DNA of 64,000 nucleotides from Candidatus Moraniibacteriota bacterium (GTDB lineage Bacteria > Patescibacteriota > Minisyncoccia > Moranbacterales > UBA1568), in the NCBI GenBank assembly GCA_049287005.1, contig JBAQEZ010000001.1:2204-66203 (forward strand), in the 5' to 3' direction. How positions within the stretch are numbered: the stretch's first letter is position 1; each line of letters opens with the position of its first letter. Of this stretch, positions 17,933-33,268 are shown one piece after another. The position numbers and the translations under genes are program-made. The notes under the pieces were generated by a model, which worked only from the letters and a program-made list of their open reading frames with translations, had not been told where the DNA came from and did no database searches.

Positions 17933-20900
17933 TTAGGCTCGCGGTTGTCCTGGTTCGCGGTAACCGGTACCGGCTGGGATGAGGCGTCCGATAATGACGT
18001 TCTCTTTGAGACCGCGCAAGCGATCTTCTTTGCCGGCGACAGCCGCGTTGATGAGAACACGCGCCGTTTCCATGAATGACGCCGCAGAAAGGAATGATTC
18101 TGTGGAAAGCGCCACCTTGGTAATGCCCAAGACCATCGATTCGCCGATCGCCTCACGACCCTTGGCCGTCAGAGCGCCTTCATTGGCTTCGAGAAATTGG
18201 TCTTTCTCGACGATATCGCCCGGAAGGAGGAGAGTATCCCCCGGATCCATCACGCGGATACGCGACAGCATCTGACGGATAATCACTTCGATATGCTTGT
18301 CATTGATGCCCTCGCCTTGAGCGGCATAAATCTCTTCGATTTCACGGATGATATAGCGATGCACCGCCTCTTGTCCCATGACGGTGTAGAGCTTGCGCAA
18401 GTCGAGATGACCTTCAGAGAGTATCGCGCCGACACCGACGAGATCCCCTTCCTTGACGCGCAACGCCACATTGGCAGGCGCCTGATATTCATAGAGTTTC
18501 TTGTCTGTTCCTTCCACGGTGATCTTCACCACCTTAGCATTATCTTTGACGATCGTTTTCACCTGTCCGTCCGCTTCGCATAGGATAGCTTCCGTTTTCG
18601 GCACGCGCGCCTCGAAAATTTCTTCCACGCGCGGGAGGCCTTGAGTGATATCGGATCCGATAACGCCACCAACATGGAACGTACGCATCGTCAGCTGTGT
18701 CCCCGGTTCACCGATGGCTTGCGCGGCGACGACTCCGACTGAGGCGCCGAGTTCTACGAGCGCGCTCCGGCCGAGATCGATACCATAACACAAGCGACAG
18801 ACGCCGCGACGGGATTTGCACGTGACCAGAGAGCGGATTTTCACTTTGGGAATATTCTTGCTTTCGATTTCCTTGCCCTGCTCTCTCGAGATGATAGCGC
18901 CCTTCTTCACGATCACGGCTTTGGTGGCCGGATCCTTGAGAGCCTCGATGGCCGTGCGGCCTTCCACGCGAGCGGCATAGCTATGACCGATGGCATCGGA
19001 ATCTTCCCGATAGAGATACACGCCTTCCGTATCGGCACAGTCTTCTTCACGGACGATGATATCCTGTGCCACATCGACGAGACGCCGCGTCAGATATCCG
19101 GCAGTCGCCGTACGAAGAGCCGTATCAGCCATGCCTTTCCGCGCACCATGAGTGGAGATGAAATACTCGAGAACATTGAATCCTTCCTTGAAGGAGCTCT
19201 TGACTGGCAGCTCGATCGTTTCGCCGGTCGGTCCAGCCATCAGGCCTTTCATACCAGTCATCTGAACGACGACGGATTCGGATCCGCGCGCTTTGGAATA
19301 CACCATGGCATACACCGGGCCTTCTTTGTCGAGCGATGCGCGTACCGCATCGGTGATGCGATTCTTGGTTTCGTTCCAGATTTCAATCACCCGGTTACGG
19401 CGCTCTTCGTTGGTGAGGAGACCGACATTGTACTGATCTTTCACTTCTTTAACCCGGACTTCCGCATCGGTGATGAAAGCTGTTTTTTCCTTCGGCACGA
19501 TCAGATCATCCATGCCCCAACTGATACCGGAGCCGGACACCGCACGGAATGAGAGATCTTTCAAACGATCAGCGAACAAGGCGGCTTCGTCCTGTCCAAG
19601 CGTCTCCAAGATGCGGGACATGATAGCTTTCAGATCCTTCTTCACCATCTCTTCATTGAGGAAGCGGAGGCTTTCCGGAAGAATATCATTGAGGAGAATC
19701 CGTCCCACGGACGTCTCGATGAGCTTACCCTCCCACAAGAGCTTCACGGCCACATTGACGGCGACGATATTGTTCTGATAAGCGAGAATCGCTTCATCCA
19801 TCGATCCGAAGGCTTTCCCTTTGCCTTTGCCTTCCGCTTTGATATGGGTGAGGTAATACATGCCGAGCACCATATCCAAGGTCGCGGTCACGATCGGTTC
19901 ACCGGAGGCCGGTTTCAGGAGATTTTTGGAAGACAACATGATCGTCGCGCTTTCATGGCGGGCCTGATCGGTCAGCGGCACATGGACAGCCATCTGGTCG
20001 CCATCGAAGTCGGCGTTGAAGGCGGAACACACCATCGGGTGCAGGCGGATCGCCTTGCCTTCGATGAGCACCGGCTGGAAGGCCTGGATCGAGAGACGAT
20101 GGAGCGTCGGGGCGCGGTTCAGGAGGACGTAGTGATGTTCGATGATCTGGTCGAGAATTTCGTACGCCTCTTCTGTTTCCGCGTCCACCATGCGACCGGC
20201 TGTCCGGACGTTGTGGGCGAGCTCTTTCTCGATGAGTTTATTGATGATGAATGGTTTGAAGAGTTCGAGAGCCATTTTCTTTGGCAGACCGCACTGATGG
20301 AGCTTCAATTTCGGTCCAACCACGATGACCGAACGTCCGGAATAATCCACCCGCTTGCCGAGCAAGTTCTGACGGAAGCGTCCCTGCTTGCCTTTCAATG
20401 CATCTGCCAGGGAACGGAGGGCTCGTCTTTGTCCGGTCGAAGCGGCCGTCGAAGCCTGTCCGCGGCGAGCGCTGTTGTCGAAGAGGGCGTCTACCGCTTC
20501 CTGCAGCATTCTTTTCTCATTGCGGGTGATGACTTCCGGAGCGCCGATCGCCATCAGCTTCTTGAGACGGTTGTTACGGTTGATAATCCGACGATACAGA
20601 TCGTTGAGATCGGAAGTCGCGAAACGGCCGCCATCGAGGGCGACCATCGGACGCAGATCCGGAGGGATGACCGGGATCGCCGTCGGGAGCATCCATTCGA
20701 AACGCAGACTGGCTTTCTCGAATCCCTGATAAACCTTCAAACGCTGGAGTAATTTCTTCTGATCGATCGATTCATTTTCTGACAATTCTGCCTTCAAGAC
20801 TTTGAGCTGCTTCTTGATATCGATCTTCTCCAAAATCTTGCGGACGGCTTCCGCACCGATACCGGCAGTGAAAACTTGTCCGAAACGGCTCGACAGATTG

Positions 20901-21523
20901 AAATAATCCACTTCGGAGAGGATCTGATACGGACGCAGATTGCGCATCTCTTCTTTCGTCGTGCGATACTGTTCCTTCAATTCCTCAATGGACTCCTCGT
21001 AGACTTTCGTTTCTTTGCCGCTGCCTTTCAGTTCTTTCTGCTTGTTCTTGTATTCTTTCTCCAGCTGTTCGAGAGATTGGGTCTTCAAAGCCTCATTCAC
21101 TTCCATGATGATATAGGAAGAGAAATAAATCACCCGTTCGAGATCCTGCGGAGAGATACCCAAGACAAGACCGATCTTCGAAGGCACGCCCCGCAAAAAC
21201 CAGATATGCGACACCGGCGTCGCGAGCTTGATATGACCCATCCGTTCCCGCCGCACGATGGAGCGTGTCACTTCGACACCGCACTTATCGCAGACGATCC
21301 CGTTATAACGAATCCTTTTATACTTTCCACAATAACACTCCCAGTCTTTGGAAGGACCAAAAATCTTCTCACAAAACAACCCATCCGGTTCGTAGCGCTG
21401 TGTGCGATAATTGATCGTTTCCGGCTTGGTGATTTCACCGTGTGACCATTCGAGAATCTGGTCCGGGCTCGCGAGTGTCAGACGGACGCTGTCGAAATCA
21501 CTCACTTTCGTAATATTTTCCAT
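17933..21523 (-). CDS. rpoC: DNA-directed RNA polymerase subunit beta' RpoC
   Basis: Zn-finger CYCGKYKRIRYNGIVCDKCG and an NADFDGDQM catalytic motif. The start is taken at MENITK. Confidence 0.97.
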   Translation of the reverse strand: MENITKVSDFDSVRLTLASPDQILEWSHGEITKPETINYRTQRYEPDGLFCEKIFGPSKDWECYCGKYKRIRYNGIVCDKCGVEVTRSIVRRERMGHIKLATPVSHIWFLRGVPSKIGLVLGISPQDLERVIYFSSYIIMEVNEALKTQSLEQLEKEYKNKQKELKGSGKETKVYEESIEELKEQYRTTKEEMRNLRPYQILSEVDYFNLSSRFGQVFTAGIGAEAVRKILEKIDIKKQLKVLKAELSENESIDQKKLLQRLKVYQGFEKASLRFEWMLPTAIPVIPPDLRPMVALDGGRFATSDLNDLYRRIINRNNRLKKLMAIGAPEVITRNEKRMLQEAVDALFDNSARRGQASTAASTGQRRALRSLADALKGKQGRFRQNLLGKRVDYSGRSVIVVGPKLKLHQCGLPKKMALELFKPFIINKLIEKELAHNVRTAGRMVDAETEEAYEILDQIIEHHYVLLNRAPTLHRLSIQAFQPVLIEGKAIRLHPMVCSAFNADFDGDQMAVHVPLTDQARHESATIMLSSKNLLKPASGEPIVTATLDMVLGMYYLTHIKAEGKGKGKAFGSMDEAILAYQNNIVAVNVAVKLLWEGKLIETSVGRILLNDILPESLRFLNEEMVKKDLKAIMSRILETLGQDEAALFADRLKDLSFRAVSGSGISWGMDDLIVPKEKTAFITDAEVRVKEVKDQYNVGLLTNEERRNRVIEIWNETKNRITDAVRASLDKEGPVYAMVYSKARGSESVVVQMTGMKGLMAGPTGETIELPVKSSFKEGFNVLEYFISTHGARKGMADTALRTATAGYLTRRLVDVAQDIIVREEDCADTEGVYLYREDSDAIGHSYAARVEGRTAIEALKDPATKAVIVKKGAIISREQGKEIESKNIPKVKIRSLVTCKSRRGVCRLCYGIDLGRSALVELGASVGVVAAQAIGEPGTQLTMRTFHVGGVIGSDITQGLPRVEEIFEARVPKTEAILCEADGQVKTIVKDNAKVVKITVEGTDKKLYEYQAPANVALRVKEGDLVGVGAILSEGHLDLRKLYTVMGQEAVHRYIIREIEEIYAAQGEGINDKHIEVIIRQMLSRIRVMDPGDTLLLPGDIVEKDQFLEANEGALTAKGREAIGESMVLGITKVALSTESFLSAASFMETARVLINAAVAGKEDRLRGLKENVIIGRLIPAGTGYREPGQPRA

Positions 21524-21572
21524 AGTTTTGAATATTGACTTGGATAGAAATAAAAAGTAAGAAAGTTGGGGG

Positions 21573-24500
21573 TTAGACGGTATCGATAACGGCTGCGGGA
21601 GCAGCGTCATCCGATTCCGTTTTCACTCCCTTGAGTTCGACATTGAGACAGAGACCCTTCAGTTCATTGATGAGAACATGGAAAGAAGCGGGAAGGTTCG
21701 GACTCTTGATCGGCTCGCCTTTGATGATCGACTCGTAAGCCTTGGAGCGGCCCAACACATCATCGGATTTGATAGTCAGCATTTCTTGGAGGGTATAGGC
21801 GGCACCGTAGCCTTCGAGTGCCCACACTTCCATTTCGCCGAAGCGCTGTCCACCGAACTGCGCCTTGCCGCCGAGCGGCTGCTGGGTGATGAGAGAATAG
21901 GGCCCGATGCTTCGCATATGCAGCTTGTCTTCGATCAAATGGTTCAGTTTCATGATATACATCACGCCCACGGTCGATTCGTTATCGAAGGGTTGGCCGG
22001 TTTTGCCGTCAGTCAATCTGATCTTGCCGTTTTCCGGAAGACCAGCTGCCTTCAGTTCTTTCTTGATATCTCCTTCTGATACTCCATCCAGAGCCAAGCT
22101 CGCCACTTTGTATCCCAGTGTTTTGGCGGCCCATCCCAAGTGTGTCTCGAGAATCTGACCGATGTTCATACGCGAAGCCACACCAAGCGAGTTCAGCACA
22201 ACGTCCACTGGAGTTCCGTCAGGCAGGTATGGCATATCTTCAGCTGCAGCAATATAGGAAATGACGCCTTTGTTACCGTGTCGTCCAGCCAGCTTGTCAC
22301 CGACGGAAATCTTGCGCATCTGCGCGACCGATACTTGAATCTGCTGAAAGACACCCATCGGGAGTTTGTCACCGCGTTCACGAGAGAAAATTTTCACATC
22401 CACTACCTTGCCGTGTTCACCATGCGGCAGATACATCGAAGAATCTTTCACGTCACGGGACTTTTCACCGAAAATAACGCGGAGCAGTCTTTCTTCTGCC
22501 GTCAGATCACCCTCGCCTTTCGGGGTGATTTTCCCCACCAAGATATCGCCGGAAGAAATTTCCGCACCGATCCGGATGATGCCGTTCTCGTCGAGGTTTT
22601 TCAAGCGATCCTCACCGATATTGGGAATATCCCGCGTCACGACTTCAGGCCCAAGCTTGGTATCGCGCACGTCGATCGAGAAATCCTCGATATGGATCGA
22701 ACTCCAGCGATCACCCTGCACCACTTTTTCAGAAACGATGATGGCATCTTCGTAGTTGTATCCGTTCCACGGTACGAAGGCCACGACCATGTTCTGACCC
22801 AAGGCGAGTTCGCCGTGATCCGTCGAGGCACCGTCCGCGAGCATCTCGCCTTTCTCAACCACCTGACCCTTCGCGACGCGTGGCACCTGGTTCATACTGG
22901 TGAAGGCGTTGGACTTTTCGAAGCTCTGCAGGAGATATTCCGTATCAATATGATCTTTCTTGGCACCAGCCGGAGCCTTGGAGCGGACGATGATGTGGTT
23001 GGCATCGACGGTGATCACTTCACCAGCCATCATGGCCAACACCACTTGTCCCGAATCACGCGCCGCCTTGTCTTCGATACCGGTACCGACAATCGGCGCT
23101 TCCGGTACGACACAGGATACCGCTTGGCGCTGCATGTTCGATCCCATAAGGGCACGGTTGGCATCATCATGCTCGACGAAAGGAATCAACGCTGTGGCGA
23201 TAGAAATACACTGCTTCACGGAAACATCCATATAATCCACCACTTCCGCTTCGATGGTTTCCGGATGACCTTTCACGCGAGCCTCTACCATAGACTGCAC
23301 GATAGTGCGATGCTCGTCGATTTCCACGCCGGCGTGAGCGACGATCTTCCTGTCTTCCACGATGGCATTCAAATATTCGATATCGAGAGTCACGAATGGT
23401 TTCACTTTGACCGTCTCGCCTTTCTTTTTATCAGCCACTTTCTTGGCCGTTTCCTCTGACAACAGTTCGCCGATTTTCGCCACACCGGCTACGTCTTCAG
23501 CCAGGATGCGGTTCACCAGCTCTTCTTTGGTGGCAAGCACTTCTTTTTTCACGATCAGATACGGGGTCTCCAGAAAACCGTACTCGTTCACGCGAGCATA
23601 ACTGGCTAAGTGGCCTACTAGTCCGATATTCGGTCCTTCCGGCGTTTCAATCGGGCAAATACGACCATAGTGTGAATGATGGACGTCGCGCACTTCGAAA
23701 CCGGCGCGTTCACGTGTCAGACCACCAGGACCCATAGCCGACAAGCGTCGCTTGTGCTCGAGCTCAGCCAGCGGGTTCACCTGATCCATAAACTGTGACA
23801 GCTGGGAACTGGAAAAAAATTCTTTCACGGCGGCTGCCACCGGACGAGGATTAATCAGTTGTCCCGGCACTACCGTTTCCGGATCGCAGGTGCTCATTCT
23901 ATCCTTGATATTGCGCACCATGCGGTACATGCCGACACGCAGTTTGTTCTGAATCAATTCGCCCACGGCGCGCACACGGCGGTTACCGAGATGATCGATA
24001 TCGTCCGGCCGCCCTTCCGGATCGTTATTGAGACGCATGACTTCCTTGATGATCAACACCAGGTCATCGGTATTCAAAATGCGGTTCTCTTCCGTGTCGG
24101 CGCGCTCAATAGAGAGGCGCTGATTGAGACGGTAGCGACCGACGGCACCAAAATCATAACGCTCGAAATTGAAAAACATCGCGTTGATCATTTGCCGGGC
24201 GTTCTCCTCGGTGGCGAGATCGCCTGGACGGAGACGCTTGTACACTTCTCGATAAGCTTCGCCCTGATTCTTGGCTGGATCCTTGAGGATAGTCGCTTCG
24301 ATATATTTGCTTTCTTCCGGTTCAGAAAATTCCGCATGGATACGCTTCTCATCGAAACCGAATGCCTTGAAAAGCCCCGTGATCGGGAGCTTGCGCTTGC
24401 GGTCTATCTTGACGGAAATCACGCCGTCCATGTCCGTTTCGATTTCCAGCCAGGCTCCGCGATTCGGAATGATCTTGGCTCCGAACAACTTCTTCCCCTT

Positions 24501-24980
24501 CTGATAGTCCATGGTGAAAAACACGCCCGGGGAGCGGATCAACTGAGACACCACGACGCGCTCAACGCCGTTGATGATGAACGTGCCGCGTTCGGTCATG
24601 ATAGGAAAATCTCCCAGATAAATTTCTTGTTCCTTGACTTCGCCGGTCTGTTTCATGAGCAGCGTCGCCTTGGCACGGAGCGGTGCCTCGTAGGAAATAT
24701 TCTTGTTTTTGGCCACCAAAGCGCTATATTTCGGCTCATCCAGGTAGTAGTCCTGTATCGTCAGCTCCAAGTCCTTGCTGGTGAAGTCCGTAATAGGGTT
24801 GATTTCCGAAAACAGCTCCTTCAGTCCCTTGTCCCAGAACCACTGATAGGAGTCTGTCTGAACTTCGATCAGGTCCGGCAGAGAGACTGTAATCCGATTA
24901 TTGAAAAATCGCCGTTTGGAGAGAGAAGATTCTTTACCAAAAGAATCCTTCACCCGCAATGCTTTCTCTTTGCTGGACAT
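21573..24980 (-). CDS. rpoB: DNA-directed RNA polymerase subunit beta RpoB
   Basis: Full-length RpoB similarity, 1135 aa. Confidence 0.97.
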   Translation of the reverse strand: MSSKEKALRVKDSFGKESSLSKRRFFNNRITVSLPDLIEVQTDSYQWFWDKGLKELFSEINPITDFTSKDLELTIQDYYLDEPKYSALVAKNKNISYEAPLRAKATLLMKQTGEVKEQEIYLGDFPIMTERGTFIINGVERVVVSQLIRSPGVFFTMDYQKGKKLFGAKIIPNRGAWLEIETDMDGVISVKIDRKRKLPITGLFKAFGFDEKRIHAEFSEPEESKYIEATILKDPAKNQGEAYREVYKRLRPGDLATEENARQMINAMFFNFERYDFGAVGRYRLNQRLSIERADTEENRILNTDDLVLIIKEVMRLNNDPEGRPDDIDHLGNRRVRAVGELIQNKLRVGMYRMVRNIKDRMSTCDPETVVPGQLINPRPVAAAVKEFFSSSQLSQFMDQVNPLAELEHKRRLSAMGPGGLTRERAGFEVRDVHHSHYGRICPIETPEGPNIGLVGHLASYARVNEYGFLETPYLIVKKEVLATKEELVNRILAEDVAGVAKIGELLSEETAKKVADKKKGETVKVKPFVTLDIEYLNAIVEDRKIVAHAGVEIDEHRTIVQSMVEARVKGHPETIEAEVVDYMDVSVKQCISIATALIPFVEHDDANRALMGSNMQRQAVSCVVPEAPIVGTGIEDKAARDSGQVVLAMMAGEVITVDANHIIVRSKAPAGAKKDHIDTEYLLQSFEKSNAFTSMNQVPRVAKGQVVEKGEMLADGASTDHGELALGQNMVVAFVPWNGYNYEDAIIVSEKVVQGDRWSSIHIEDFSIDVRDTKLGPEVVTRDIPNIGEDRLKNLDENGIIRIGAEISSGDILVGKITPKGEGDLTAEERLLRVIFGEKSRDVKDSSMYLPHGEHGKVVDVKIFSRERGDKLPMGVFQQIQVSVAQMRKISVGDKLAGRHGNKGVISYIAAAEDMPYLPDGTPVDVVLNSLGVASRMNIGQILETHLGWAAKTLGYKVASLALDGVSEGDIKKELKAAGLPENGKIRLTDGKTGQPFDNESTVGVMYIMKLNHLIEDKLHMRSIGPYSLITQQPLGGKAQFGGQRFGEMEVWALEGYGAAYTLQEMLTIKSDDVLGRSKAYESIIKGEPIKSPNLPASFHVLINELKGLCLNVELKGVKTESDDAAPAAVIDTV

Positions 24981-25411
24981 AAAAAGACACTCATTGTGGA
25001 ACTCCTTGCTTCAAAACTGAAACAAGTAGGACAAATGAGATTATCGGATAAAACTATTTGATTGTGGATTGGGCACCTGTCCTCTCCATTGTGTTGGAAA
25101 ATGTTAGCTTCTTTCGATTAAGCAACCATCCCAACTCGGTCTCGCCATCCAGACCTTTCACCCACAGGCGATACGAGACAGAAAAGTTCTAGAGTCTGTT
25201 GAAAAAATCCTTACCCTCACGGAAGAGACCCTCTCAACAGACCCTACTTCTACAAAATGAATACAACTGATTGTAACAAGCTTCTTTTTCATTGTCAAAT
25301 GAAAACCAAAAAATGGCTCCAGAAGGCCTTTGTACTACAAAATATATCCGTTGTTTTTTGGATGCATCAAAATCTTTTTCCCGCCTGGCTGAAAATTTCA
25401 GTGCCGGCTGG

Positions 25412-25684
25412 TTACTTTTGATTCACTCCAAAAGTATATACCCTTTTGACCGTTTCCGCAATCCGCATCGAAGTATAGTTTTCCGGAACCTCCGAATCGA
25501 TCACGAAATCACTCACCTGCTCGGGTTGCAGATTGCTTTCTGCGAGCAAACCGGCTATCCCCTCAAACAATCTCCGCCCCATATCCCGCCCTTCCTGCCA
25601 CTCTTTCGCAGACACAACTTCATTTCCCTTCATCAAAGAGAGCTCGCTTTTTTCTTTTTCAATTTTCAGATGAAATGTATACAT
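25412..25684 (-). CDS. Small protein resembling the N-terminal region of TsaB/YeaZ (Kae1-associated); truncated
   Basis: EWQEGRDMGRRL...LLAESNLQPEQVSDFVID...SMRIAET resembles the TsaB N-terminal domain. The ORF is only 90 aa. Confidence 0.35.
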   Translation of the reverse strand: MYTFHLKIEKEKSELSLMKGNEVVSAKEWQEGRDMGRRLFEGIAGLLAESNLQPEQVSDFVIDSEVPENYTSMRIAETVKRVYTFGVNQK

Positions 25685-25728
25685 ATATTACTTCAACTTC
25701 TTCCAAAAGAGAGGGTTTTACTTTTTTC

Positions 25729-26931
25729 TTAATTCATTTTTTGTGATTCTCTATAGATCTCTACCTGCCGCTGATACTTCTCATAAGCAGCCTTCACCTT
25801 CTCCTGTCCCGTAGCAGAACTGACAAGCTCTTTCGAAAGTTTATTCAACTCTTCAACTGGGAGACCCGATCCATTAGGCGACCATTGCGCTATCTTATCT
25901 CTTACTTCAGGGGTGAATATCTCATCAAAAGCATCACTCAGCTCGCTTTCATCAAGATCCACGCCTAACATATATCCTTGCTTGATCGAGTCCCAAACAA
26001 CATCTCTAGGAACGTCCAAGCTTGCTGACAGCGTCTCTATCATAATATCAACCATAGCTCGCTCACCAATATACCCTTCGCCGTACTGCGTTCCAGCATG
26101 ATCCAAGAAAAACTTCTTCTCCCCCGTCCTTTTCAGATACTCGTCATATACTTCTTCACCGATTTTATCCGTAACGGCCTCATTAAAAGGCAGATGCCTG
26201 ACGTTAAATCCTCCTTTTTCAATTCCTTCCATTTGATATCCGGAAGAATTATCAACCTTTTGTCTTCCGAAAAAGAAAGATTTCATCTGTTTTTTCAGGC
26301 GCTCGATTTTTCCTTCCTCTCTCCTGATATTTTTACTGATAGCATGGGTTTGCTCATGCATGAAAGTGCTCAGGATATCCGCTCGCAATCTTCCGCGAGT
26401 GAATTGTTTCTCGCTTCTCCATTCGCGCGAGTGAAACTGACGAGAGCGTATGGCCCAAGGAGAGAAGTCCGCACCGATGGTTATTCTCTTTTCAACCGAG
26501 TTAGATTCCCCGCCAGAATAACCGACGACTTCGATATTCTCAAGAGGAATAAGCTTGGGCTCCGACTGCAAACCTGACTTACGATACATCTCAGAAAAAA
26601 TATCCTGCATTACTGAGAAATCTACCTTTTCCAAGACTTTCTTCGCTTCAACAAGACGCTCTCCTGGATCCAAATCAACCTTATCATTCTCTTCCGTCGA
26701 TTTTTCTGGCAACTGTCTGATCCTTTCCAAAACCACGACAACCTCTCTTTCTGCCTCTTCCTGCGCCTGCACAGATTCCTCTATCGTGTCTTCCTCTTCT
26801 TCTGGAATATTTTCAGGAGGACGAACACCACTACTCTCCAGTACATGACGAGTTTTTTCATTTTCTATCGAAGTCATCTGCTCAAGGTGTGGCATAGCTT
26901 TTATTTTAATTTCTTCCAATCGAAATTCCAA
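25729..26931 (-). CDS. Hypothetical acidic protein with an HExxH motif (MHEQTHAISK); putative Zn-dependent hydrolase
   Basis: The only recognisable feature is HEQTH; E/K-rich; no TM. The start may be at 26895 (MPHLEQM). Confidence 0.45.
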   Translation of the reverse strand: MEFRLEEIKIKAMPHLEQMTSIENEKTRHVLESSGVRPPENIPEEEEDTIEESVQAQEEAEREVVVVLERIRQLPEKSTEENDKVDLDPGERLVEAKKVLEKVDFSVMQDIFSEMYRKSGLQSEPKLIPLENIEVVGYSGGESNSVEKRITIGADFSPWAIRSRQFHSREWRSEKQFTRGRLRADILSTFMHEQTHAISKNIRREEGKIERLKKQMKSFFFGRQKVDNSSGYQMEGIEKGGFNVRHLPFNEAVTDKIGEEVYDEYLKRTGEKKFFLDHAGTQYGEGYIGERAMVDIMIETLSASLDVPRDVVWDSIKQGYMLGVDLDESELSDAFDEIFTPEVRDKIAQWSPNGSGLPVEELNKLSKELVSSATGQEKVKAAYEKYQRQVEIYRESQKMN

Positions 26932-27644
26932 GGATCCGTCTTGCGGTCGGGGGCGATATCACTGTGACCGACGACAGATTTGATAGGATACTGCTGCTTG
27001 AGTGACGCTATCAGATCATTGACCGCACTATACTGTGCGTTCGTGAACTGTCCCGTTTGCGTATTGATCATTTCGATGCCGAGAGAAAAATCATTCACAT
27101 TTGTTCGGTTGTCCGGCATTTTGCTCACACCGGCATGATAGGCGATGTTTTTGTCTGCCACCAGGCGATAGATCGTCCCCTTGCGGTCTATCAGATAATG
27201 CGCACTCACTCCATAATCTGCGTATTCTTTGATGACGCCGCTCACCAAATACGGATCGACGCCATTCAGATCATATGAGGAATGGAGCACGAGAGTATCG
27301 ATGGTACGCGCCTTTTGCGGCACGGAAAAACCGGATTTCATCAAACGATCAACGATAGAGAAAGGTTCATCGGCTGCCTCGGTCTCACTGGCTTTGTCGG
27401 TTTGAGAATCCGCGACCGCTGATACACCCGCAGACGGCATCGTTTCGCCTGCCGCCTGTTCTACCAAGTTTTTCACATCACGCGCGACACCGAGAGCAGC
27501 CTGAGCCTGAGTGACCTCTTGGACAATGGGTGCTTTGAGACTTTCATTGCGCACCGTTATCGGCGCGCCCGGAGTACTCAAAAAGAAATACCCCGCCCCG
27601 AGTATCATCAGTAACACCGTAATAAACAGTCCGATCAGTCCCAT
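26901..27644 (-). CDS. N-acetylmuramoyl-L-alanine amidase (Amidase_2 / AmpD-PGRP fold) with an N-terminal TM anchor
   Basis: VLHSS...AHYLIDRKGTIYRLV...AYHAG...FSLGIEMIN...GHSDIAPDRKTDP motifs; N-terminal helix MGLIGLFITVLLMILG. Confidence 0.8.
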   Translation of the reverse strand: MGLIGLFITVLLMILGAGYFFLSTPGAPITVRNESLKAPIVQEVTQAQAALGVARDVKNLVEQAAGETMPSAGVSAVADSQTDKASETEAADEPFSIVDRLMKSGFSVPQKARTIDTLVLHSSYDLNGVDPYLVSGVIKEYADYGVSAHYLIDRKGTIYRLVADKNIAYHAGVSKMPDNRTNVNDFSLGIEMINTQTGQFTNAQYSAVNDLIASLKQQYPIKSVVGHSDIAPDRKTDPWNFDWKKLK

Positions 27645-27726
27645 GGCATTATTCTTCGTCTCTCTATTATAGTACACAAAAGAAAAACCCGCCTCACGGA
27701 CGGGTTGATACAGATTGCAACTCTCT

Positions 27727-27990
27727 CTACTTCTTCTTGCTCTTTTTCCCACCACTCATAAGCAGGGCAATCGCCGCGCCCAGTGCGGCACCGATACCGG
27801 CAACCACTGCGGCAGCCTTCTCCGGATTCTTCTTGGCATAACTCTCGACGGTCGCATAGGTACTCTCCAGATGCTTCTTTACTTTCGCGAGTTCCTTCTC
27901 AGCCACAGACCGGCTCTCATCCACCTGCGCCATGACCTTCTTCTGCAATGCCTTTACTATAGCCTCTCCCTCTGCTTGTTTCTTTTCCAT
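27727..27990 (-). CDS. ElaB/YqjD-like (DUF883) tail-anchored membrane protein
   Basis: ~88 aa, a coiled-coil N-terminus and a C-terminal TM helix (AAVVAGIGAALGAAIALLM) followed by KKSKKK. Confidence 0.5.
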   Translation of the reverse strand: MEKKQAEGEAIVKALQKKVMAQVDESRSVAEKELAKVKKHLESTYATVESYAKKNPEKAAAVVAGIGAALGAAIALLMSGGKKSKKK

Positions 27991-28016
27991 ATGTCTTTTT
28001 ATGAAATGAATTAGGC

Positions 28017-28418
28017 CTAATGATCCTGGCGGTCGAACACATATACTACGAGACACAACAACAGAATGAATGCCCCCATGATCACTTCCCCTGAACCAGG
28101 GAACTGATACGCCGCGCTCATGAGCTGCGAAAGTCCCACTAAGAGGAATATCACCCCCAAAAAAGCGAAGGAAAAAAGAAATAGCCGGCGTGTCACCTTT
28201 CTGGTGAATACATGCACCGCTTGATGCGCCCGTTCAACCGCTCCGTCGAATGAAGACTGGATACCCTTGACCACGCTCTCCAAAAGGAGTCCCGTCCAAC
28301 CAGTACCCACATTTTCTTTTTTCGTCCGGGTTGTTTTTTTTGTTTCCATATCTTTCTTATTTATATTTATAATTATAGCACGAAAAAAGCAACTTGTAAA
28401 AAATTGCCACGCGTGCAT
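28017..28418 (-). CDS. Phage-holin-family (YqjE/DUF1469-like) membrane protein
   Basis: ~110-130 aa, two TM helices; sits in a pair with the ElaB-like gene as in yqjD-yqjE arrangements. Confidence 0.4.
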   Translation of the reverse strand: MHAWQFFTSCFFRAIIININKKDMETKKTTRTKKENVGTGWTGLLLESVVKGIQSSFDGAVERAHQAVHVFTRKVTRRLFLFSFAFLGVIFLLVGLSQLMSAAYQFPGSGEVIMGAFILLLCLVVYVFDRQDH

Positions 28419-28450
28419 TTTTGTGGTATGAAAAAAATAATATTCAAATT

Positions 28451-30295
28451 ATGAAAACTGAAATATTTCTTATTGGTCTCGCCGTTTTTTTCTTTCCGTT
28501 TTTTCGTACTGCTACTGCTTCCGCGGAAACCAAAAAAATTATTCTCGGTGAAATTCAGATAAGCGGGATCACGGCGAACGACGAATTCGTCCGTTTCAAA
28601 AACGAAACCGATGCCGCTATCGACTTGGCCGGTTTCAAGCTGACAAAAAAATCTGTTTCCAGCGGCAGCTGCAAAGAAAGCTCGCTCGTCAGTACGATCC
28701 ATTTCGCAGGTATTCTCGCTCCGCAAGACACCTTCACCATCGCTCATCCATCATACAAAGAAGCTCTCCGTGCCGACCTCGAATACTCGAGTGCTTCCTA
28801 TTATCTTTCAGACAACACGGCCATTCTCCTCTATGATACGACCGGGACGCTCCTCGACCGAAAAGCCGTCGGGAATGCCTGCGATATTCCTGTTGTACCT
28901 GCCAATCCGCCGATAACGCCACCGGTGCCGGATCCTCCAGCTCCAATCGCATACGATACCGCTCTCCGTCTCAACGAATTCCTTCCCGATCCTTCCGGTG
29001 ATGAAGGGACGAACGAATTCATCGAACTTTACAATGCTTCCGATGAAACTGCCGACCTTGCTTCATGGGCGCTCAAAGACGCGAGCGCATCAGGAAAATA
29101 TATTTTCCCTGACGGTACGAAACTCAAGCCGAAAGATTTTCTTGCTGTTTATCGGAACGTATTCACATTCGCTTTGAATAATTCCAATGAGACGCTTTCT
29201 CTGCTTGATCCAAACGGTACAAAAAAAGATACTGTGGCCTATACAACATCCAAAGAAGATATTTCCTGGAATTACACTTCTTCCGGCTGGCGCGGCGGCG
29301 CGCCCACTCCCGGTGCTGCAAATCAGCTGAACAATCTCCCGGAAACCAAAGAAAAGGTTCCGAAAAAAGGTTACCGCGGAGTAGCGATTGATTTCGATGC
29401 GCAGGGCAACGATGATGACCGCGATACTCTCAAATACGCCTGGGATTTCGGCGACGGCCACAAAAGTTACAAAGAACAAACATCGCACACCTTCGAAGAA
29501 AACGGCACCTATACTGTCACTCTGAAAACCAGCGACAATAAAGAAGACGTTAGAGAGACGTTCACACTCGAAATAGAGTCTTTGCCTCATCCGGAAGTCC
29601 GTATCACTTCTCTCCTGCCCAACCCGAATGGAAGCGATACGGACCATGAGTGGCTCATGATAGAGAACAGGGAAAAGAAGACCATCAACCTGAAAGATTA
29701 CAGCATCGCTACCGGATGGAAGACGCTTTCGAATCATCCGATCCGCGAAGACTTCCCGATCAAACCGAAATCCGAAGCAAAACTGACTCGGGCGGTCTCC
29801 CTCTTCACCCTTCCCAACCAAAAAGGGAAGATTGAGCTCCGAGCTCCCGATGGAAAGACGCTCCAGAAAATACAATACAAGTCCGACAAATCCATTCCAG
29901 AAAATACCCTCTACCGCAAAGAAAAAGGAAGTACCTGGAAATGGGCAGCACTCGCACAACAAATACCAACAACTTCTGAAAAGGAAGCTGCCCCTATATC
30001 ATCACCGCCACTGGAAGGAAAACCGGAAGAGGCTCTCTCGCCGAGAGAAGAAGACGCTCCAAGCGACACGATAAAAAGAAACCAACTTTCTCTCGATCCT
30101 GACCGCCCTATACCCCAAGACATCTTGGCCTATGGCACGCATACGGAAATACCCGACACTATCATTCTGAAACCTTTCCCTGCCAAAGAAGCGCTGCCTC
30201 TGTCCGCAACGCGTCATTACGCTGTTGCCTTCGTAGGAACCGCGTTCTCAGATATCAACGCATCATTGAATGATCTCTTGGCGAGAGCACGGTAG
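28451..30295 (+). CDS. Secreted lamin-tail-domain (LTD) repeat protein with a PKD domain
   Basis: Signal peptide; three LTD motifs (LNEFLPDPSGDEG..EFIELYN; ITSLLPNPNGSD..EWLMIEN; ILGEIQISG..EFVRFKN); PKD-like YAWDFGDGHKS...GTYTVTLK. Confidence 0.75.
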   Translation: MKTEIFLIGLAVFFFPFFRTATASAETKKIILGEIQISGITANDEFVRFKNETDAAIDLAGFKLTKKSVSSGSCKESSLVSTIHFAGILAPQDTFTIAHPSYKEALRADLEYSSASYYLSDNTAILLYDTTGTLLDRKAVGNACDIPVVPANPPITPPVPDPPAPIAYDTALRLNEFLPDPSGDEGTNEFIELYNASDETADLASWALKDASASGKYIFPDGTKLKPKDFLAVYRNVFTFALNNSNETLSLLDPNGTKKDTVAYTTSKEDISWNYTSSGWRGGAPTPGAANQLNNLPETKEKVPKKGYRGVAIDFDAQGNDDDRDTLKYAWDFGDGHKSYKEQTSHTFEENGTYTVTLKTSDNKEDVRETFTLEIESLPHPEVRITSLLPNPNGSDTDHEWLMIENREKKTINLKDYSIATGWKTLSNHPIREDFPIKPKSEAKLTRAVSLFTLPNQKGKIELRAPDGKTLQKIQYKSDKSIPENTLYRKEKGSTWKWAALAQQIPTTSEKEAAPISSPPLEGKPEEALSPREEDAPSDTIKRNQLSLDPDRPIPQDILAYGTHTEIPDTIILKPFPAKEALPLSATRHYAVAFVGTAFSDINASLNDLLARAR

Positions 30296-30900
30296 ACATA
30301 CACGTACGCTATAATGCTCACCGGAATGGTAACGAGCAATCCGAGAACAAGCGCCAGCGCCCCCAAAATATTCAAGCCACAGAGCACAAGAGCGAATCCC
30401 AGCAATTTCCATTTGACCCCTTCGGTCATCGTGGCGCTTTTTTTCAGAGCATCCAGCACGCCGAGGTTCTTATCCACGATCAGGTAAGAAAAAAACTGAT
30501 ATTTCAAGGCCCAATAAATACCCGGGATGATAAGCAGTGCCAGACCGAGCGCCACCATCAGGCCATACAGGAGCGCCGCTCCGAGATAGCGCCAAATCAA
30601 ACGATGTTGAGAAAAAAGCACCGCGAGCTTGTCTTCGGTACCCTCCGCGAGATCGAGATACATCCGGATCAGCCCCAGCTGGACGATAAAGCCTAAAACG
30701 ATAGCGACCAGACCGATCAGTGTGCCGAGAGAAGTTTCCTTTCCCGCACCTTTCTGGAGCAGGCTGAACACAAGAGAAATCCCCCAAACAGACCCGAATA
30801 TCATCCACAAAAAAAGGAAATGCGTCTTGAAGGTTTCCCATCCGAACCGCACTGCCTCCCCTACGCGAAAAGTGTCCATAACCGGAAACGAGTGAATCAT
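30217..30900 (-). CDS. Hypothetical polytopic membrane protein
   Basis: 5-6 predicted TM helices; the 3' end overlaps the LTD gene convergently by 79 nt. Confidence 0.5.
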   Translation of the reverse strand: MIHSFPVMDTFRVGEAVRFGWETFKTHFLFLWMIFGSVWGISLVFSLLQKGAGKETSLGTLIGLVAIVLGFIVQLGLIRMYLDLAEGTEDKLAVLFSQHRLIWRYLGAALLYGLMVALGLALLIIPGIYWALKYQFFSYLIVDKNLGVLDALKKSATMTEGVKWKLLGFALVLCGLNILGALALVLGLLVTIPVSIIAYVYVYRALAKRSFNDALISENAVPTKATA

Positions 30901-31858: not shown

Positions 31859-33268
31859 ATGCATCCTTTTTTCACGCGGAAGCGCACAATCGCTATTGCC
31901 CTCTCTATTGTTGTTGTTTTGGGAGGCGTATCCTTATTTTTTTATGCCAAAACGCATAAGGTGCAATTTGCCGCGAACTCCCTCAATCTTTTTCAGAAAG
32001 TCTCCCGGCTGCTGCCTTTGGCTCCGGACACCAAGAAAGAAATCGAGGTCATCAACGCGCTGGTCGCAGCGGTTACTCAGAAAGATGATCAGATCCATAC
32101 GTTCCTCATTCTTCTCCAGAATAGCGACGAACTGCGTCCGGGCGGCGGATTTTTGGGTCAATACGCCGTCGTCAAGACGAAGAATGGTGAGGTAGTCTCA
32201 ACCTTCGTCGAAGATGCCAACCTTCTGGATCAGCGTATCTCAGCCGACGTACCAACGCCCTACCCTTTTGAACGTAAAATGCAGCTGAGAAAATGGAAAT
32301 TCCGTGATTCTAATTTCTCGCCCAACTTCCCGACCAACGCGGAAAAGGCGCAGTATTTCTATCGCCTGGCCGGCGGCTATGAGAAATTCGATGGTGTCAT
32401 CGCGGTGAATTCCCTCACCTTCAACAACATCCTCGCACTGACCGGACCGATTCAGATTCCCGGAGATTCCAACGTCTACACCAGCACTGACGGCGCGTAC
32501 AAGCTGGAAGATCGCGTCGAGCGAGCCTATCTCGGAGAAGATGTCCCAGCTGAATTGAAACAGGCTCGCAAACTGATCATGAAGAAAATCGCCGCCGAGA
32601 TCATGAAACGCGCGGTCACGGTCTCCAATATTCCGAAACTCGCCGAGTTCGCAGGCACAGAACTCCGCAACAAAGATGTCATGTTCTTTTTCAAAGATCC
32701 AGCGCTCCAAGCTTTGGTGGAAAGCGTCCATTGGGACGGGAGCGTCGTCAAAGACTGGAACAATGACTATCTGATGCTCGTCGATGCCAACATGGGCGCC
32801 CTCAAGACGGATTTCTATATCAAACGCTCCTTGGACTACACCGTTGATTTCACGGGCGACAAACCGACGGGCACGATCATCTATACCTACAAAAACACAG
32901 CCACGTACGGAGATTGGCGTACCAGCGACTATCACACCTACCTGCGCGCCTACGTACCGAAAGGCTCGAAATTCCTCGAGCGCAAGATGATCAACGTCGT
33001 CACGACCAAGGAAGACTTCAACAAAACCTATTTCGATGGCTTCGTGGATGTAGAAATCGGGCAGAGCGATGTCAACACCACGCTTAGATATGAGCTCCCG
33101 GACACCATCACTCCCGAAAATTATCATCTCTTGATCCAGAAGCAATCCGGTGTCGGCACCCTTCCGGTCACCATCCACCTGAAAACCAAGGACAAAGAGT
33201 ACACACAAAGCGCCGACCTTTTGAAAGACCTCAACTTTTCTATCCAGACAACGGAAGAGAAGAAATAA
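31859..33268 (+). CDS. DUF4012-like N-terminally anchored extracytoplasmic protein
   Basis: N-terminal TM helix and an LLQNSDELRPGGGFLGQYAVV motif, which I recognise as the DUF4012 signature. Confidence 0.5.
   Translation: MHPFFTRKRTIAIALSIVVVLGGVSLFFYAKTHKVQFAANSLNLFQKVSRLLPLAPDTKKEIEVINALVAAVTQKDDQIHTFLILLQNSDELRPGGGFLGQYAVVKTKNGEVVSTFVEDANLLDQRISADVPTPYPFERKMQLRKWKFRDSNFSPNFPTNAEKAQYFYRLAGGYEKFDGVIAVNSLTFNNILALTGPIQIPGDSNVYTSTDGAYKLEDRVERAYLGEDVPAELKQARKLIMKKIAAEIMKRAVTVSNIPKLAEFAGTELRNKDVMFFFKDPALQALVESVHWDGSVVKDWNNDYLMLVDANMGALKTDFYIKRSLDYTVDFTGDKPTGTIIYTYKNTATYGDWRTSDYHTYLRAYVPKGSKFLERKMINVVTTKEDFNKTYFDGFVDVEIGQSDVNTTLRYELPDTITPENYHLLIQKQSGVGTLPVTIHLKTKDKEYTQSADLLKDLNFSIQTTEEKK

What the first reader, a model, noticed from the sequence alone, without database searches (positions are those of the whole stretch)
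25412..28418. Holin-family protein, ElaB-like tail-anchored protein, TM-anchored Amidase_2 peptidoglycan hydrolase and an HExxH protein clustered upstream of rpoB
Reading 5' to 3' on the minus strand, the cluster contains: a YqjE/holin-superfamily-like two-TM protein; a DUF883/ElaB-like protein; an N-acetylmuramoyl-L-alanine amidase with an N-terminal signal-anchor (reminiscent of SAR-type endolysins); a 400-aa acidic protein whose only motif is HEQTH (putative metallohydrolase); and a truncated TsaB-like ORF. The holin-like plus amidase arrangement resembles a lysis cassette or a cryptic prophage remnant, but it lies in a core region next to rpoBC. It could be a chromosomally domesticated, stress-regulated autolysis or cell-wall remodelling module; YqjD/ElaB/YqjE are stationary-phase membrane proteins in E. 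coli.
Basis: partly seen in the sequence, partly recalled or inferred. Interest (0 to 1): 0.6.

Follow-up and report, generated by a model that had tools for sequence, protein, structure and literature searches.

The report
Unrelated membrane and cell-wall genes beside rpoB
The supposed "holin plus amidase lysis cassette" in this Candidatus Moraniibacteriota genome is more likely a conserved chromosomal neighbourhood of separate units, so it is ordinary as a lysis system but holds several uncharacterised protein families from these candidate-phyla-radiation (CPR) bacteria.

Summary
All five minus-strand genes are real, but three begin downstream of the longest ORF: A is 110 aa, B 87 aa and C 247 aa.

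- **A and B.** A (two TM segments) is only a sub-threshold relative of Pfam PF07332, the family of E. coli YqjE; "holin" there is a database label. B is a C-tail-anchored DUF883/YqjD/ElaB-like protein. They form a pair with a strong promoter-like site, and a terminator-like hairpin after B recurs in most relatives examined.
- **C.** C is a membrane-anchored Zn amidase of the AmpD/AmpDh2/AmiD type. It has an ordinary hydrophobic anchor and a -10-like box of its own.
- **D.** D (HEQTH) belongs to a family of over 300 cluster representatives with invariant HExxH and Glu, no Pfam or PDB match and low GC3. It is absent from this slot in every related species genome examined.
- **E.** E is a conserved ~90-aa, N-terminal-half-only TsaB/YeaZ, not a broken gene.

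A-B-C-E-rpoB is syntenic in related Moraniibacteriota. A-B also occurs without the amidase, and the amidase without A-B. No phage genes or viral-contig relatives were found. The lysis-cassette and prophage readings are not supported. One lineage keeps C-E-A-B together away from rpoB, so a functional link is not excluded.

The parts
28372..28400 (-). Promoter-like site upstream of gene A (TTTACA, 17-nt spacer, TG-TATAAT; 11 of 12 consensus matches)
   Evidence: It lies inside the 133-aa ORF extension, which supports the 110-aa start for A.
28017..28349 (-). Gene A: 110-aa basic membrane protein with an N-terminal Lys/Arg-rich cytoplasmic segment and two C-terminal TM helices joined by a conserved PG.GE loop. 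Remote YqjE-like (PF07332) candidate.
   Evidence: (alignment A3). Window A itself has no PF07332 hit. 11 of 14 relatives hit it below threshold.
27727..27990 (-). Gene B: 87-aa Lys-rich helical protein with a C-terminal glycine-zipper TM anchor preceded by an invariant Asn-Pro. DUF883 / YqjD / ElaB-like tail-anchored protein.
   Evidence: source names 'ElaB/YqjD/DUF883'; A2.
27686..27706 (-). Terminator-like GC-rich hairpin followed by a T-run, immediately after gene B
   Evidence: A hairpin with a different sequence occupies the same position in L002, L003, L005, L083 and L031, with a clear T-run in L003, L005 and L083; L007's short spacer shows none.
27666..27671 (-). TATAAT -10-like box upstream of the amidase gene
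   Evidence: Read directly. TATAAT boxes occur at the same position in L002, L003, L007, L083 and L031. The consensus scan did not list it because the -35 element is weak.
26901..27644 (-). Gene C: 247-aa N-acetylmuramoyl-L-alanine amidase. It has an N-terminal hydrophobic anchor (res 2-22), a ~100-aa linker and an Amidase_2 domain of the AmpD/AmpDh2/AmiD type.
   Evidence: 99.7 bits; AmpD model 113 bits, below the 143 cutoff.
25729..26895 (-). Gene D: 388-aa acidic protein (pI 5.0) with no signal peptide or TM, a disordered acidic N-terminus and invariant H180-E181-x-x-H184 plus E239 (FNEGVTD). Uncharacterised gluzincin-like family. Clade-specific insertion with low GC3.
   Evidence: The insertion is shown.
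25412..25684 (-). Gene E: 90-aa protein matching only the N-terminal half of TsaB/YeaZ ('mini-TsaB'). It is conserved at this length directly upstream of rpoB in many Moraniibacteriota.
   Evidence: (A5).

Best explanation
The interval is not one functional cassette. It is a conserved chromosomal neighbourhood in a Candidatus Moraniibacteriota (CPR) genome, made of separate units that sit upstream of rpoBC.

**1. The A-B pair.** A is a YqjE-like two-TM protein and B is a C-tail-anchored DUF883/YqjD-like protein. They appear to be transcribed from their own strong promoter and stopped by an intrinsic terminator. By analogy with E. coli YqjD/ElaB, I infer that B dimerises through its glycine-zipper anchor and uses its basic N-terminal helices to bind and silence ribosomes at the membrane under stress. 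A would be its membrane partner, function unknown. This step is inferred, not shown.

**2. The amidase C.** It has its own -10-like box and an ordinary signal-anchor that places a zinc amidase of the AmpD/AmpDh2/AmiD type outside the membrane. There it would cut stem peptides from the cell's own peptidoglycan for wall turnover or daughter-cell separation. The domain and catalytic residues are shown. The topology and substrate are inferred.

**3. The insert D.** It is a cytoplasmic, acidic, gluzincin-like putative metallopeptidase. It was inserted into the C-E spacer in one sub-clade only and is functionally unrelated to its neighbours.

**4. The small gene E.** It is a conserved mini-TsaB, consisting of the YeaZ N-terminal half only, which accompanies rpoB across the wider lineage.
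For: **Identity and synteny.**
- D equals a hypothetical protein of a Candidatus Moraniibacteriota MAG.
- A-B-C-E-rpoB is present in L002, L003, L005, L007, L008, L012, L031, L083, L096, L103 and L110. It is flanked by the same LTD/PKD, DUF975 and DUF4012 genes, with no phage genes.

**Separate transcription units.**
- A has an 11-of-12 promoter match, and a terminator-like hairpin follows B.
- A hairpin with differing stem sequence follows B in five relatives, with a clear T-run in three of them, and a TATAAT box lies between B and C in five; L007's short spacer has the box but no hairpin.

**The A-B module.**
- hhalign of the B family against E. coli YqjD gives 94.9% probability, E = 4e-8.
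- 25 of 38 B relatives hit DUF883_C, and JGI names several of them ElaB/YqjD/DUF883.
- 11 of 14 A relatives have PF07332, YqjE's family, as their commonest Pfam hit.
- Among 29 metagenomic B loci, an A homologue is called just upstream in 25. Three of the other four have no room upstream.
- Njenga et al. (doi 10.1101/2024.08.16.608256) report yqjE-like genes next to DUF883 genes throughout that family, and show that YqjD blocks the ribosomal tunnel exit.

**Independence of A-B and C.**
- A-B without the amidase: L084-L087, L105, L107, L112, L115 and L123.
- The amidase without A-B: L004, L015, L016, L019 and L023.

**The amidase.**
- Pfam scores 99.7 bits. The best PDB relatives are AmpD, AmpDh2, AmpDh3 and AmiD, with GHSDIAPDRKTDP and GIE aligned to the AmpD zinc-ligand and catalytic motifs.
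- A distant homologue has an LSGC lipobox, and another has Lys-Lys before the TM segment.

**D as an insertion.**
- It is absent between C and E in every related GTDB genome examined, and other inserts occupy nearby slots.
- Its GC3 is 0.44, against 0.51 to 0.64 for the minus-strand neighbours.
- D homologues elsewhere sit in unrelated contexts.
Against: - Homology of A to YqjE is weak. Window A has no PF07332 hit, relatives stay below the gathering score, and hhalign against the single YqjE sequence is negative.
- B lacks a detectable DUF883 N-terminal domain. Its match rests largely on a Pro plus glycine-zipper anchor, which could be convergent.
- The gene order (yqjE-like, then yqjD-like) is the reverse of E. 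coli.
- In a more distant lineage (L116, L119) the four genes are still clustered as C-E-A-B, next to a class A PBP and away from rpoB. This suggests the A-B and C-E association may be more than inherited synteny.
- Terminators can be leaky, and no expression data exist.
- No biochemical function was tested for any of the five proteins.
Confidence: 0.6

Rival explanations
1. A, B and C (perhaps with E) form a functionally coupled envelope module. The YqjE-like and YqjD-like membrane proteins would regulate or gate the membrane-anchored amidase, giving controlled wall remodelling or autolysis under stress. They would be membrane regulators, not a phage-type holin.
For: - A-B lies next to the amidase in about a dozen Moraniibacteriota genomes, with A identity ranging from 25 to 71%.
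- In L116 and L119 the genes stay together in a different order (PBP, C, E, A, B) without rpoB.
- All three proteins are membrane-anchored.
- The Pseudomonas yqjD/yqjE operon has been linked to the cell-envelope stress response (PMC11302039).
Against: - A terminator-like hairpin after B and a -10-like box before C recur across most relatives examined.
- A-B occurs in at least seven other contexts with no amidase or wall gene nearby.
- The amidase occurs without A-B.
- The loci that show adjacency are phylogenetically close to each other, so there are only about two independent observations.
Confidence: 0.2
2. This is a domesticated holin-endolysin pair. A would be a class II holin or pinholin that permeabilises or depolarises the membrane to release or activate amidase C, causing programmed autolysis.
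For: - A is small, has two TM segments, and its relatives have Pfam 'Phage_holin_3_6' as their commonest, sub-threshold hit.
- The C catalytic domain scores against PHROG endolysin and amidase families.
- C has an N-terminal TM segment, as SAR endolysins do.
- Overexpressed E. coli YqjE is reported to be toxic (cited in PMC11302039).
Against: - PF07332 is YqjE's family (75.8 bits). I found no experimental holin study for it in the library.
- A has a 50-aa cytoplasmic N-terminal domain and only a 5-residue acidic C-terminal tail, unlike typical holins.
- B and a terminator-like hairpin separate A from C.
- The C anchor is 29% Gly/Ala/Ser/Thr with mean hydropathy 2.33. Two SAR domains recalled from memory are 55 to 65%.
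- A distant homologue of C is a lipoprotein.
- The best profile match for C is bacterial AmpD at 113 bits, against 73 bits for the best PHROG.
- A-B is widespread without any lysin.
Confidence: 0.08
3. The region is a cryptic prophage remnant or other mobile-element scar carrying a lysis cassette.
For: - The GC content of 25-27 kb is lower (0.42-0.44) than the window mean of 0.50.
- The slot between C and E is variable among relatives.
Against: - The low-GC segment is mainly D (GC3 0.44), with E intermediate at 0.51.
- A, B, C and E are syntenic with core genes across species whose rpoB identity ranges from about 77 to 93%.
- There is no integrase, capsid, tail or terminase gene, and no tRNA at the borders.
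- Viral-contig scans with C and the B family found no relatives.
Confidence: 0.02

Closest known systems
E. coli yqjD-yqjE(-yqjK) operon. YqjD/ElaB/YgaM are DUF883 C-tail-anchored ribosome-inactivating proteins; YqjE is PF07332.
   Same: - A small helical, basic protein ends in a Pro-preceded glycine-zipper TM anchor (B), and it sits next to a two-TM protein with an N-terminal cytoplasmic helix (A).
- Profile similarity of B to YqjD is 94.9% probability.
- A relatives have PF07332 as their commonest Pfam hit.
- The pair is conserved as a unit in varied genomic contexts, as reported for DUF883 with yqjE-like genes.
   Different: - All matches are below curated thresholds.
- No DUF883 N-terminal domain is detected.
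- There is no Trp after the Pro and no C-terminal Arg-Arg; B has Glu-Lys and a poly-Lys tail instead.
- The gene order is reversed (yqjE-like first), and no yqjK-like gene is present.
- The host is a CPR bacterium. That phylum is not among those listed in the two DUF883 surveys read here.
AmpD / AmpDh2 / AmpDh3 / AmiD zinc amidases (the Amidase_2 or PGRP fold)
   Same: - The Amidase_2 domain is present.
- The GHSDIAPxRKTDP and GIE motifs align with the AmpD zinc ligands and catalytic residues.
- C is anchored outside the cytoplasm, like AmpDh2 and AmiD, which are lipoproteins.
   Different: - C scores below the AmpD equivalog cutoff (113 against 143 bits).
- It has an uncleaved-looking N-terminal TM anchor and a ~100-aa low-complexity linker.
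- It has no peptidoglycan-binding domain.
- CPR bacteria are generally thought to lack an outer membrane (my own knowledge), so it would act on the organism's own exposed wall.
Phage holin with SAR-endolysin lysis cassettes (for example P1 Lyz, phage 21 S21/R21)
   Same: A small two-TM protein is encoded near a peptidoglycan hydrolase that has an N-terminal TM segment.
   Different: - The genes are not adjacent, and a terminator-like hairpin lies between them.
- The anchor is strongly hydrophobic rather than Gly/Ala-rich.
- There is no phage context.
- A lacks the short N-terminus and basic C-terminal tail typical of holins.
- The A-B pair exists widely without a lysin.
Gluzincin metallopeptidases (HExxH plus a downstream Glu, for example thermolysin's NExxSD, or the minigluzincins selecase and abylysin)
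   Same: - D has an invariant HExxH on a predicted helix that is preceded by a three-strand sheet.
- It has an invariant Glu in an NEGxTD motif at the start of a later helix.
- Selecase, abylysin and ArdC appear among the Foldseek hits, though none is significant.
   Different: - D has no Pfam match, no PDB sequence match and no significant fold match (all E > 0.8).
- The HExxH-to-Glu spacing is 55 residues and contains an inserted beta-hairpin.
- D has a large helical C-terminal domain and an acidic, disordered N-terminus.
TsaB / YeaZ (the dimerisation subunit in t6A tRNA modification)
   Same: E aligns with residues 3-86 of YeaZ, the first half of the fold. 13 of 17 family members hit TIGR03725.
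   Different: E is only about 90 aa, against about 210-230 aa for TsaB, so the whole second half is missing. It is conserved at this short length and positioned upstream of rpoB. Its scores are far below the equivalog cutoff.

Membership tests
Holin (Pfam PF07332 Phage_holin_3_6, holin superfamily III) | Match to the family profile at or above the gathering score (28.4 bits) | tested here: not met
   Window A has no hit at E<=1. The best relatives reach 20.2 to 20.9 bits. E. coli YqjE, run as a control, scores 75.8 bits.
Holin (functional class) | Small membrane protein with a short N-terminus and a charged, usually basic, hydrophilic C-terminal tail | tested here: not met
   A has two TM segments (mean hydropathy 2.33 and 3.01). 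It also has a ~50-aa cytoplasmic N-terminal domain, and its C-terminal tail is only five residues, DRQDH.
Holin (functional class) | Encoded next to, and co-transcribed with, an endolysin in a phage or prophage lysis cassette | tested here: not met
   Gene B and a terminator-like hairpin lie between A and C, and C has its own -10-like box. There are no phage genes in the conserved flanks. No viral-contig relatives were found.
Holin (functional class) | Membrane permeabilisation or lysis on expression | not testable with these tools
   This requires an expression experiment.
DUF883 / YqjD-ElaB-YgaM | C-tail anchor with a conserved helix-breaking Pro next to a glycine-rich TM segment (DUF883_C) | tested here: met
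   N55-P56 and AGIGAALGAA are invariant in 38 sequences. 25 of 38 hit PF19029, best E = 2.9e-5; the window protein scores 16 bits against a cutoff of 27. hhalign against YqjD gives 94.9% probability. The Pro and Gly conservation is described.
DUF883 / YqjD-ElaB-YgaM | DUF883 N-terminal domain (PF05957) | tested here: not met
   PF05957 does not appear among the listed families for the window protein or for the 38 relatives at E<=0.1. YqjD, run as a control, hits it at 4e-13.
DUF883 / YqjD-ElaB-YgaM | A neighbouring yqjE-like (PF07332) gene | tested here: inconclusive
   A two-TM gene lies immediately upstream of B in 25 of 29 metagenomic loci, and three of the other four have no room upstream. 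It resembles PF07332 only below threshold. hhalign against single YqjE is negative.
DUF883 / YqjD-ElaB-YgaM | Binds the 50S subunit near the tunnel exit and inhibits translation | not testable with these tools
   This is known for E. coli YqjD and ElaB. It needs biochemistry here.
Amidase_2 N-acetylmuramoyl-L-alanine amidase | Pfam PF01510 above its cutoff, with the zinc ligands (His, His, Asp) and the catalytic Glu and Lys present | tested here: met
   The score is 99.7 bits against a cutoff of 26. GHSDIAPDRKTDP and GIEM align to AmpD's GHCNIAPERKTDP and GIEL. The first His lies in LVLHSS, within the Pfam-aligned region. The residue roles come from my knowledge of the AmpD structure.
AmpD (cytoplasmic 1,6-anhydro-MurNAc-L-Ala amidase, NCBIfam NF008758 equivalog) | Score at or above the equivalog cutoff, and a soluble cytoplasmic protein | tested here: not met
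   C scores 113.3 bits against a cutoff of 143. An N-terminal hydrophobic anchor is present in all homologues, and one has a lipobox.
SAR (signal-anchor-release) endolysin | Weakly hydrophobic, Gly/Ala/Ser/Thr-rich N-terminal TM domain that can leave the membrane | tested here: not met
   The C anchor GLIGLFITVLLMILGAGYFFL is 29% G/A/S/T with mean Kyte-Doolittle hydropathy 2.33. The R21 and P1 Lyz SAR segments, recalled from memory, are 55 to 65% and 1.9 to 2.0.
Zincin / gluzincin metallopeptidase (protein D) | HExxH on a helix, plus a third zinc ligand Glu on a downstream helix | tested here: met
   H180, E181, H184 and E239 are invariant in 69 sequences, and the corresponding positions are invariant in 90. 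In the model, helix 167-186 carries HExxH and helix 235-257 carries E239, with pLDDT 81 to 86. Metal binding was not tested.
Zincin / gluzincin metallopeptidase (protein D) | Significant sequence or fold similarity to a known zincin family | tested here: inconclusive
TsaB / YeaZ (protein E) | Full two-subdomain fold of about 210-230 aa, scoring above the TIGR03725 cutoff | tested here: not met
   E is 90 aa. It scores 22.8 bits against a cutoff of 69.3 and matches only profile positions 13-81 of 212. Relatives are all about 88-113 aa.

The most novel reading that the evidence does not exclude
A, B and C, perhaps with the mini-TsaB E, form a CPR-specific coupled module. A YqjE/YqjD-like membrane pair would control a surface-anchored amidase. 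That amidase would serve regulated autolysis or wall remodelling, or, in an episymbiotic lifestyle, attack on a host cell wall. The evidence does not exclude this, because the four genes stay clustered in two different orders and in two different genomic settings.

A milder and more likely novelty (about 0.5) is that A-B are true YqjE/YqjD homologues. That would extend this membrane-anchored ribosome-silencing module to Patescibacteria. It would bear on the recent claim that YqjD arose in Proteobacteria.
Probability: 0.12. Interest if true: 0.6.

Novelty: new member of a known kind. Interest (0 to 1): 0.3.

Why it matters
- **Annotation caution.** The Pfam name "Phage_holin_3_6" belongs to the YqjE family. 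Combined with any Amidase_2 gene nearby, it can produce false lysis-cassette calls in genome mining.
- **A candidate hibernation module.** CPR bacteria have tiny genomes and mostly unknown stress biology. A divergent YqjE/YqjD-like pair would give them a candidate membrane-tethered ribosome-hibernation system that can be tested in vitro.
- **A lead on wall turnover.** The anchored AmpD-type amidase is a concrete candidate for how these organisms turn over or split their wall.
- **By-products.** The work also turned up a gluzincin-like family of over 300 cluster representatives with no database home, a half-size TsaB conserved beside rpoB, and a conserved rpoB leader. All three are small, well-defined targets for follow-up.

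Tried and rejected
- **Direct tests of A.** BLASTP of A against E. coli YqjE found nothing. hhalign of the A family against single YqjE gave 1% probability. The YqjE link therefore rests on sub-threshold Pfam hits and gene neighbourhood only.
- **Family libraries.** NCBIfam and PHROGs gave nothing useful for A, B, D or E beyond weak noise.
- **Word-indexed search for D.** It found only four relatives. The exhaustive search was needed to reveal the family.
- **Viral contigs.** A scan with the D alignment could not be run because no stretch was conserved enough. Scans with C and the B family found no relatives. These scans detect only fairly close relatives, so the negative result is weak.
- **RNA searches.** Rfam found nothing in the region except the two tRNAs elsewhere in the window.
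- **Literature.** Searches for Patescibacteria amidase or holin systems, CPR TsaB and "Holin-X" returned nothing directly relevant.
- **Alternative start for C.** I considered the 284-aa GTG start, which would add a basic N-terminus. I rejected it because conservation begins at MGLIGL in the homologues, and the extension overlaps the terminator-like hairpin and the -10-like box.

Full report
**What is in the sequence.** Region 25412-28418 carries five consecutive minus-strand ORFs, followed by rpoB (21573-24980) and rpoC (17933-21610). Protein D is identical to a hypothetical protein of a Candidatus Moraniibacteriota MAG, so the window comes from a CPR/Patescibacteria genome.

Homologue alignments, public gene calls and signal positions move three starts downstream of the longest ORFs.
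- A is 28017-28349 (110 aa).
- B is 27727-27990 (87 aa).
- C is 26901-27644 (247 aa).
- D is 25729-26895 (388 aa).
- E is 25412-25684 (90 aa).

All five have conserved homologues, so they are real genes.

**Gene A, the "holin".** Window A gives no Pfam holin hit even at E<=1. Of the 14 members of its family, 11 match PF07332 "Phage_holin_3_6" below threshold. The best score among them is 20.2 bits, the L083 orthologue reaches 20.9 bits, and the cutoff is 28.4. As a control, E. coli YqjE scores 75.8 bits on that model, so this is the YqjE/DUF1469 family. I found no experimental holin work on it in the paper library.

Direct comparisons with YqjE are negative. A has a Lys/Arg-rich cytoplasmic N-terminal region of about 50 residues, two strongly hydrophobic TM helices joined by a conserved PG.GE loop, and a 5-residue acidic tail. 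That is YqjE-like architecture, not typical holin architecture.

**Gene B.** B is a Lys-rich helical protein ending in an invariant Asn-Pro followed by an AGIGAALGAA glycine-zipper anchor and a poly-Lys tail.
- 25 of 38 relatives hit DUF883_C, best E = 2.9e-5.
- hhalign against E. coli YqjD gives 94.9% probability, E = 4e-8.
- BLASTP aligns the motif that runs from the Asn-Pro into the TM anchor.
- JGI names about a dozen relatives [quoted passage not shown].
- The DUF883 N-terminal domain is not detected.

Njenga et al. (doi 10.1101/2024.08.16.608256) show that YqjD and ElaB are C-tail-anchored proteins that inactivate ribosomes at the tunnel exit. The Pro and the TM glycines are the conserved features of the family, and yqjE-like genes accompany DUF883 genes throughout it. 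The phyla they list do not include Patescibacteria. A later preprint places the origin of YqjD in Proteobacteria.

**A-B is an autonomous pair.**
- A promoter-like site matching 11 of 12 consensus positions (TTTACA, 17 nt, TG-TATAAT) lies at 28400-28372, and a terminator-like hairpin at 27706-27686 follows B.
- In five relatives a hairpin of different sequence follows B. Three have a clear T-run, and L007's short spacer has no hairpin. A TATAAT box lies between B and C in five relatives.
- In 29 metagenomic loci found with the B profile, an A homologue lies immediately upstream in 25. Three of the other four have no room upstream.
- In more distant lineages the pair is flanked by an ABC transporter, UvrB-like genes and other unrelated genes, with no amidase.

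**Gene C, the amidase.** The Amidase_2 match is 99.7 bits. The best profile is bacterial AmpD at 113 bits, below the equivalog cutoff of 143. The best solved relatives are AmpD, AmpDh2, AmpDh3 and AmiD, with the GHSDIAPDRKTDP and GIE motifs aligned. PHROG endolysin families also match, at 73 bits or less, as expected for any Amidase_2 domain.

The N-terminal segment GLIGLFITVLLMILGAGYFFL is a strongly hydrophobic anchor. It is 29% Gly/Ala/Ser/Thr, against 55 to 65% for two SAR domains recalled from memory. Homologues keep the MGLIGL start, one distant homologue has an LSGC lipobox, and another has Lys-Lys before the TM segment. I therefore infer an extracytoplasmic, membrane-tethered enzyme that needs no holin for export.

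**Gene D.** The HEQTH motif is real.
- The exhaustive search found 303 cluster representatives at E<=1e-3.
- H180, E181, H184, G219, E239 (within FNEGVTD), Y253 and Y275 are invariant (five of the seven are also invariant in the 90-sequence alignment, where Y275 is nearly so and Y253 is not listed).
- No Pfam family and no PDB sequence relative exist.
- The AlphaFold models are confident (pLDDT 81 and 86). They show a three-strand sheet, the HExxH helix, a beta-hairpin insert and a helix that begins with the invariant Glu.
- Foldseek against PDB finds nothing significant. The zincins selecase, abylysin and ArdC appear only at E > 4.

D has no signal peptide or TM segment, has pI 5.0, and has the lowest GC3 of the neighbourhood (0.44, against 0.51 to 0.64 for the minus-strand neighbours).

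**Gene E.** E matches only the first half of TsaB/YeaZ. TIGR03725 covers positions 13-81 of 212, the PDB entry 3r6m (YeaZ) matches at E = 6e-5 with the family profile, and 13 of 17 members hit the TsaB model. It is conserved at about 88-113 aa upstream of rpoB in 24 of the first 30 or so Moraniibacteriota loci. It is a stable short form, not a truncated remnant.

**Synteny.** I retrieved 80 rpoB loci from one genome per species and compared them with the window proteins.
- A-B-C-E-rpoB is present in L002, L003, L005, L007, L008, L012 and L031. It is also in L083, L096, L103 and L110, with the same LTD/PKD, DUF975 and DUF4012 genes on the other side.
- C-E-rpoB without A-B occurs in L004. C without A-B occurs in L015, L016, L019 and L023. 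E-rpoB alone occurs more widely.
- D is absent from the C-E spacer in all of these. Other inserts occupy nearby slots: a 470-aa TM protein in L003, a 214-aa protein in L007, and PilX-like pseudopilins in L004 and L008.
- D is present in the same slot in one further metagenomic lineage, at 66% identity. D homologues elsewhere lie in unrelated places, several of them inside rpsL-rpsG-fusA-tuf regions.

Conservation is therefore nested: E-rpoB is widest, then C-E, then A-B-C-E, and D is clade-specific. No phage hallmark genes occur in the conserved flanks, and viral-contig scans with C and the B family were negative.

**The one observation that cuts the other way.** In two related groundwater contigs (L116, L119) the order is class A PBP, C, E, A, B, with no rpoB within 2 kb. 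The two pairs thus remain neighbours after rearrangement. This is only about one extra independent observation. It is nonetheless why I give 0.2 to a functionally coupled envelope module.

**Verdict.** The lysis-cassette and prophage interpretations are not supported.

The best-supported reading (0.6) is a conserved neighbourhood of independent units:
- a divergent YqjE/YqjD-like membrane pair, probably involved in ribosome tethering or silencing (function inferred);
- a housekeeping anchored AmpD/AmiD-type amidase;
- an inserted gluzincin-like protein of unknown function;
- a mini-TsaB.

Novelty is modest, amounting to new and divergent CPR members of known kinds plus one unclassified HExxH family. 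Interest is 0.3.

Noticed in passing
window 24981-25300 (minus strand), between gene E and rpoB: A promoter-like site (TTGACA, 17 nt, TG-TACAAT; 25298-25270) and a leader of about 210 nt are highly conserved at the DNA level in L002, L004, L005, L012 and L083, seemingly more so than the flanking protein genes. RNAalifold predicts several stems. One is a 3' hairpin that pairs CCUACUUGUUUC with GAAGCAAGGAG and so sequesters the Shine-Dalgarno sequence; it has a few compensatory changes. There is no Rfam match even at E<=1. This is a candidate cis-regulatory leader for rpoB in Moraniibacteriota.
   Followed up: partly
window 24951-24995 (minus strand): The conserved AAGGAG lies about 8 nt upstream of a conserved ATG/GTG, at roughly position 24993. 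That codon opens a short out-of-frame uORF (MSVFLCPAKRKHCG*) overlapping the annotated rpoB ATG at 24980, which itself sits about 22 nt from the Shine-Dalgarno sequence. This could mean translational coupling, or a mis-set rpoB start.
   Followed up: no
window 25412-25684 (minus strand), and L002-L027 upstream of rpoB: A 'mini-TsaB' of about 90 aa, corresponding to only the N-terminal half of TsaB/YeaZ, is conserved directly upstream of rpoB across many Moraniibacteriota. In L116 and L119 it lies next to the amidase without rpoB. No full-length form was seen at this position, and no literature on it was found.
   Followed up: partly
L089, L090, L092, L093 (contexts of D homologues): Members of the D family (HExxH...NEGxTD) lie inside or beside the rpsL-rpsG-fusA-tuf region in other genomes, probably also CPR. 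They sit among variable genes of unknown function, a HicA toxin and a PI3/PI4-kinase-like gene. Core translation and transcription operons in these genomes seem to be recurrent landing sites for variable genes.
   Followed up: no
window 28421-30295 (+), 30217-30900 (-), 31859-33268 (+): The divergently oriented neighbours are a 624-aa secreted protein with lamin-tail domains and a PKD domain, a DUF975/YciC-like membrane protein, tRNA-Gly, and a 469-aa protein whose L083 counterpart is annotated DUF4012. All are syntenic with the A-B-C-E block in relatives.
   Followed up: partly
L004 2891-3652 and L008 2230-3012: PilX_N-like (type IV pseudopilin-like) genes are inserted just upstream of the amidase in two relatives. 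In L004 the gene takes the place of A-B, and in L008 it lies between B and C. This is another sign that the neighbourhood tolerates insertions.
   Followed up: no
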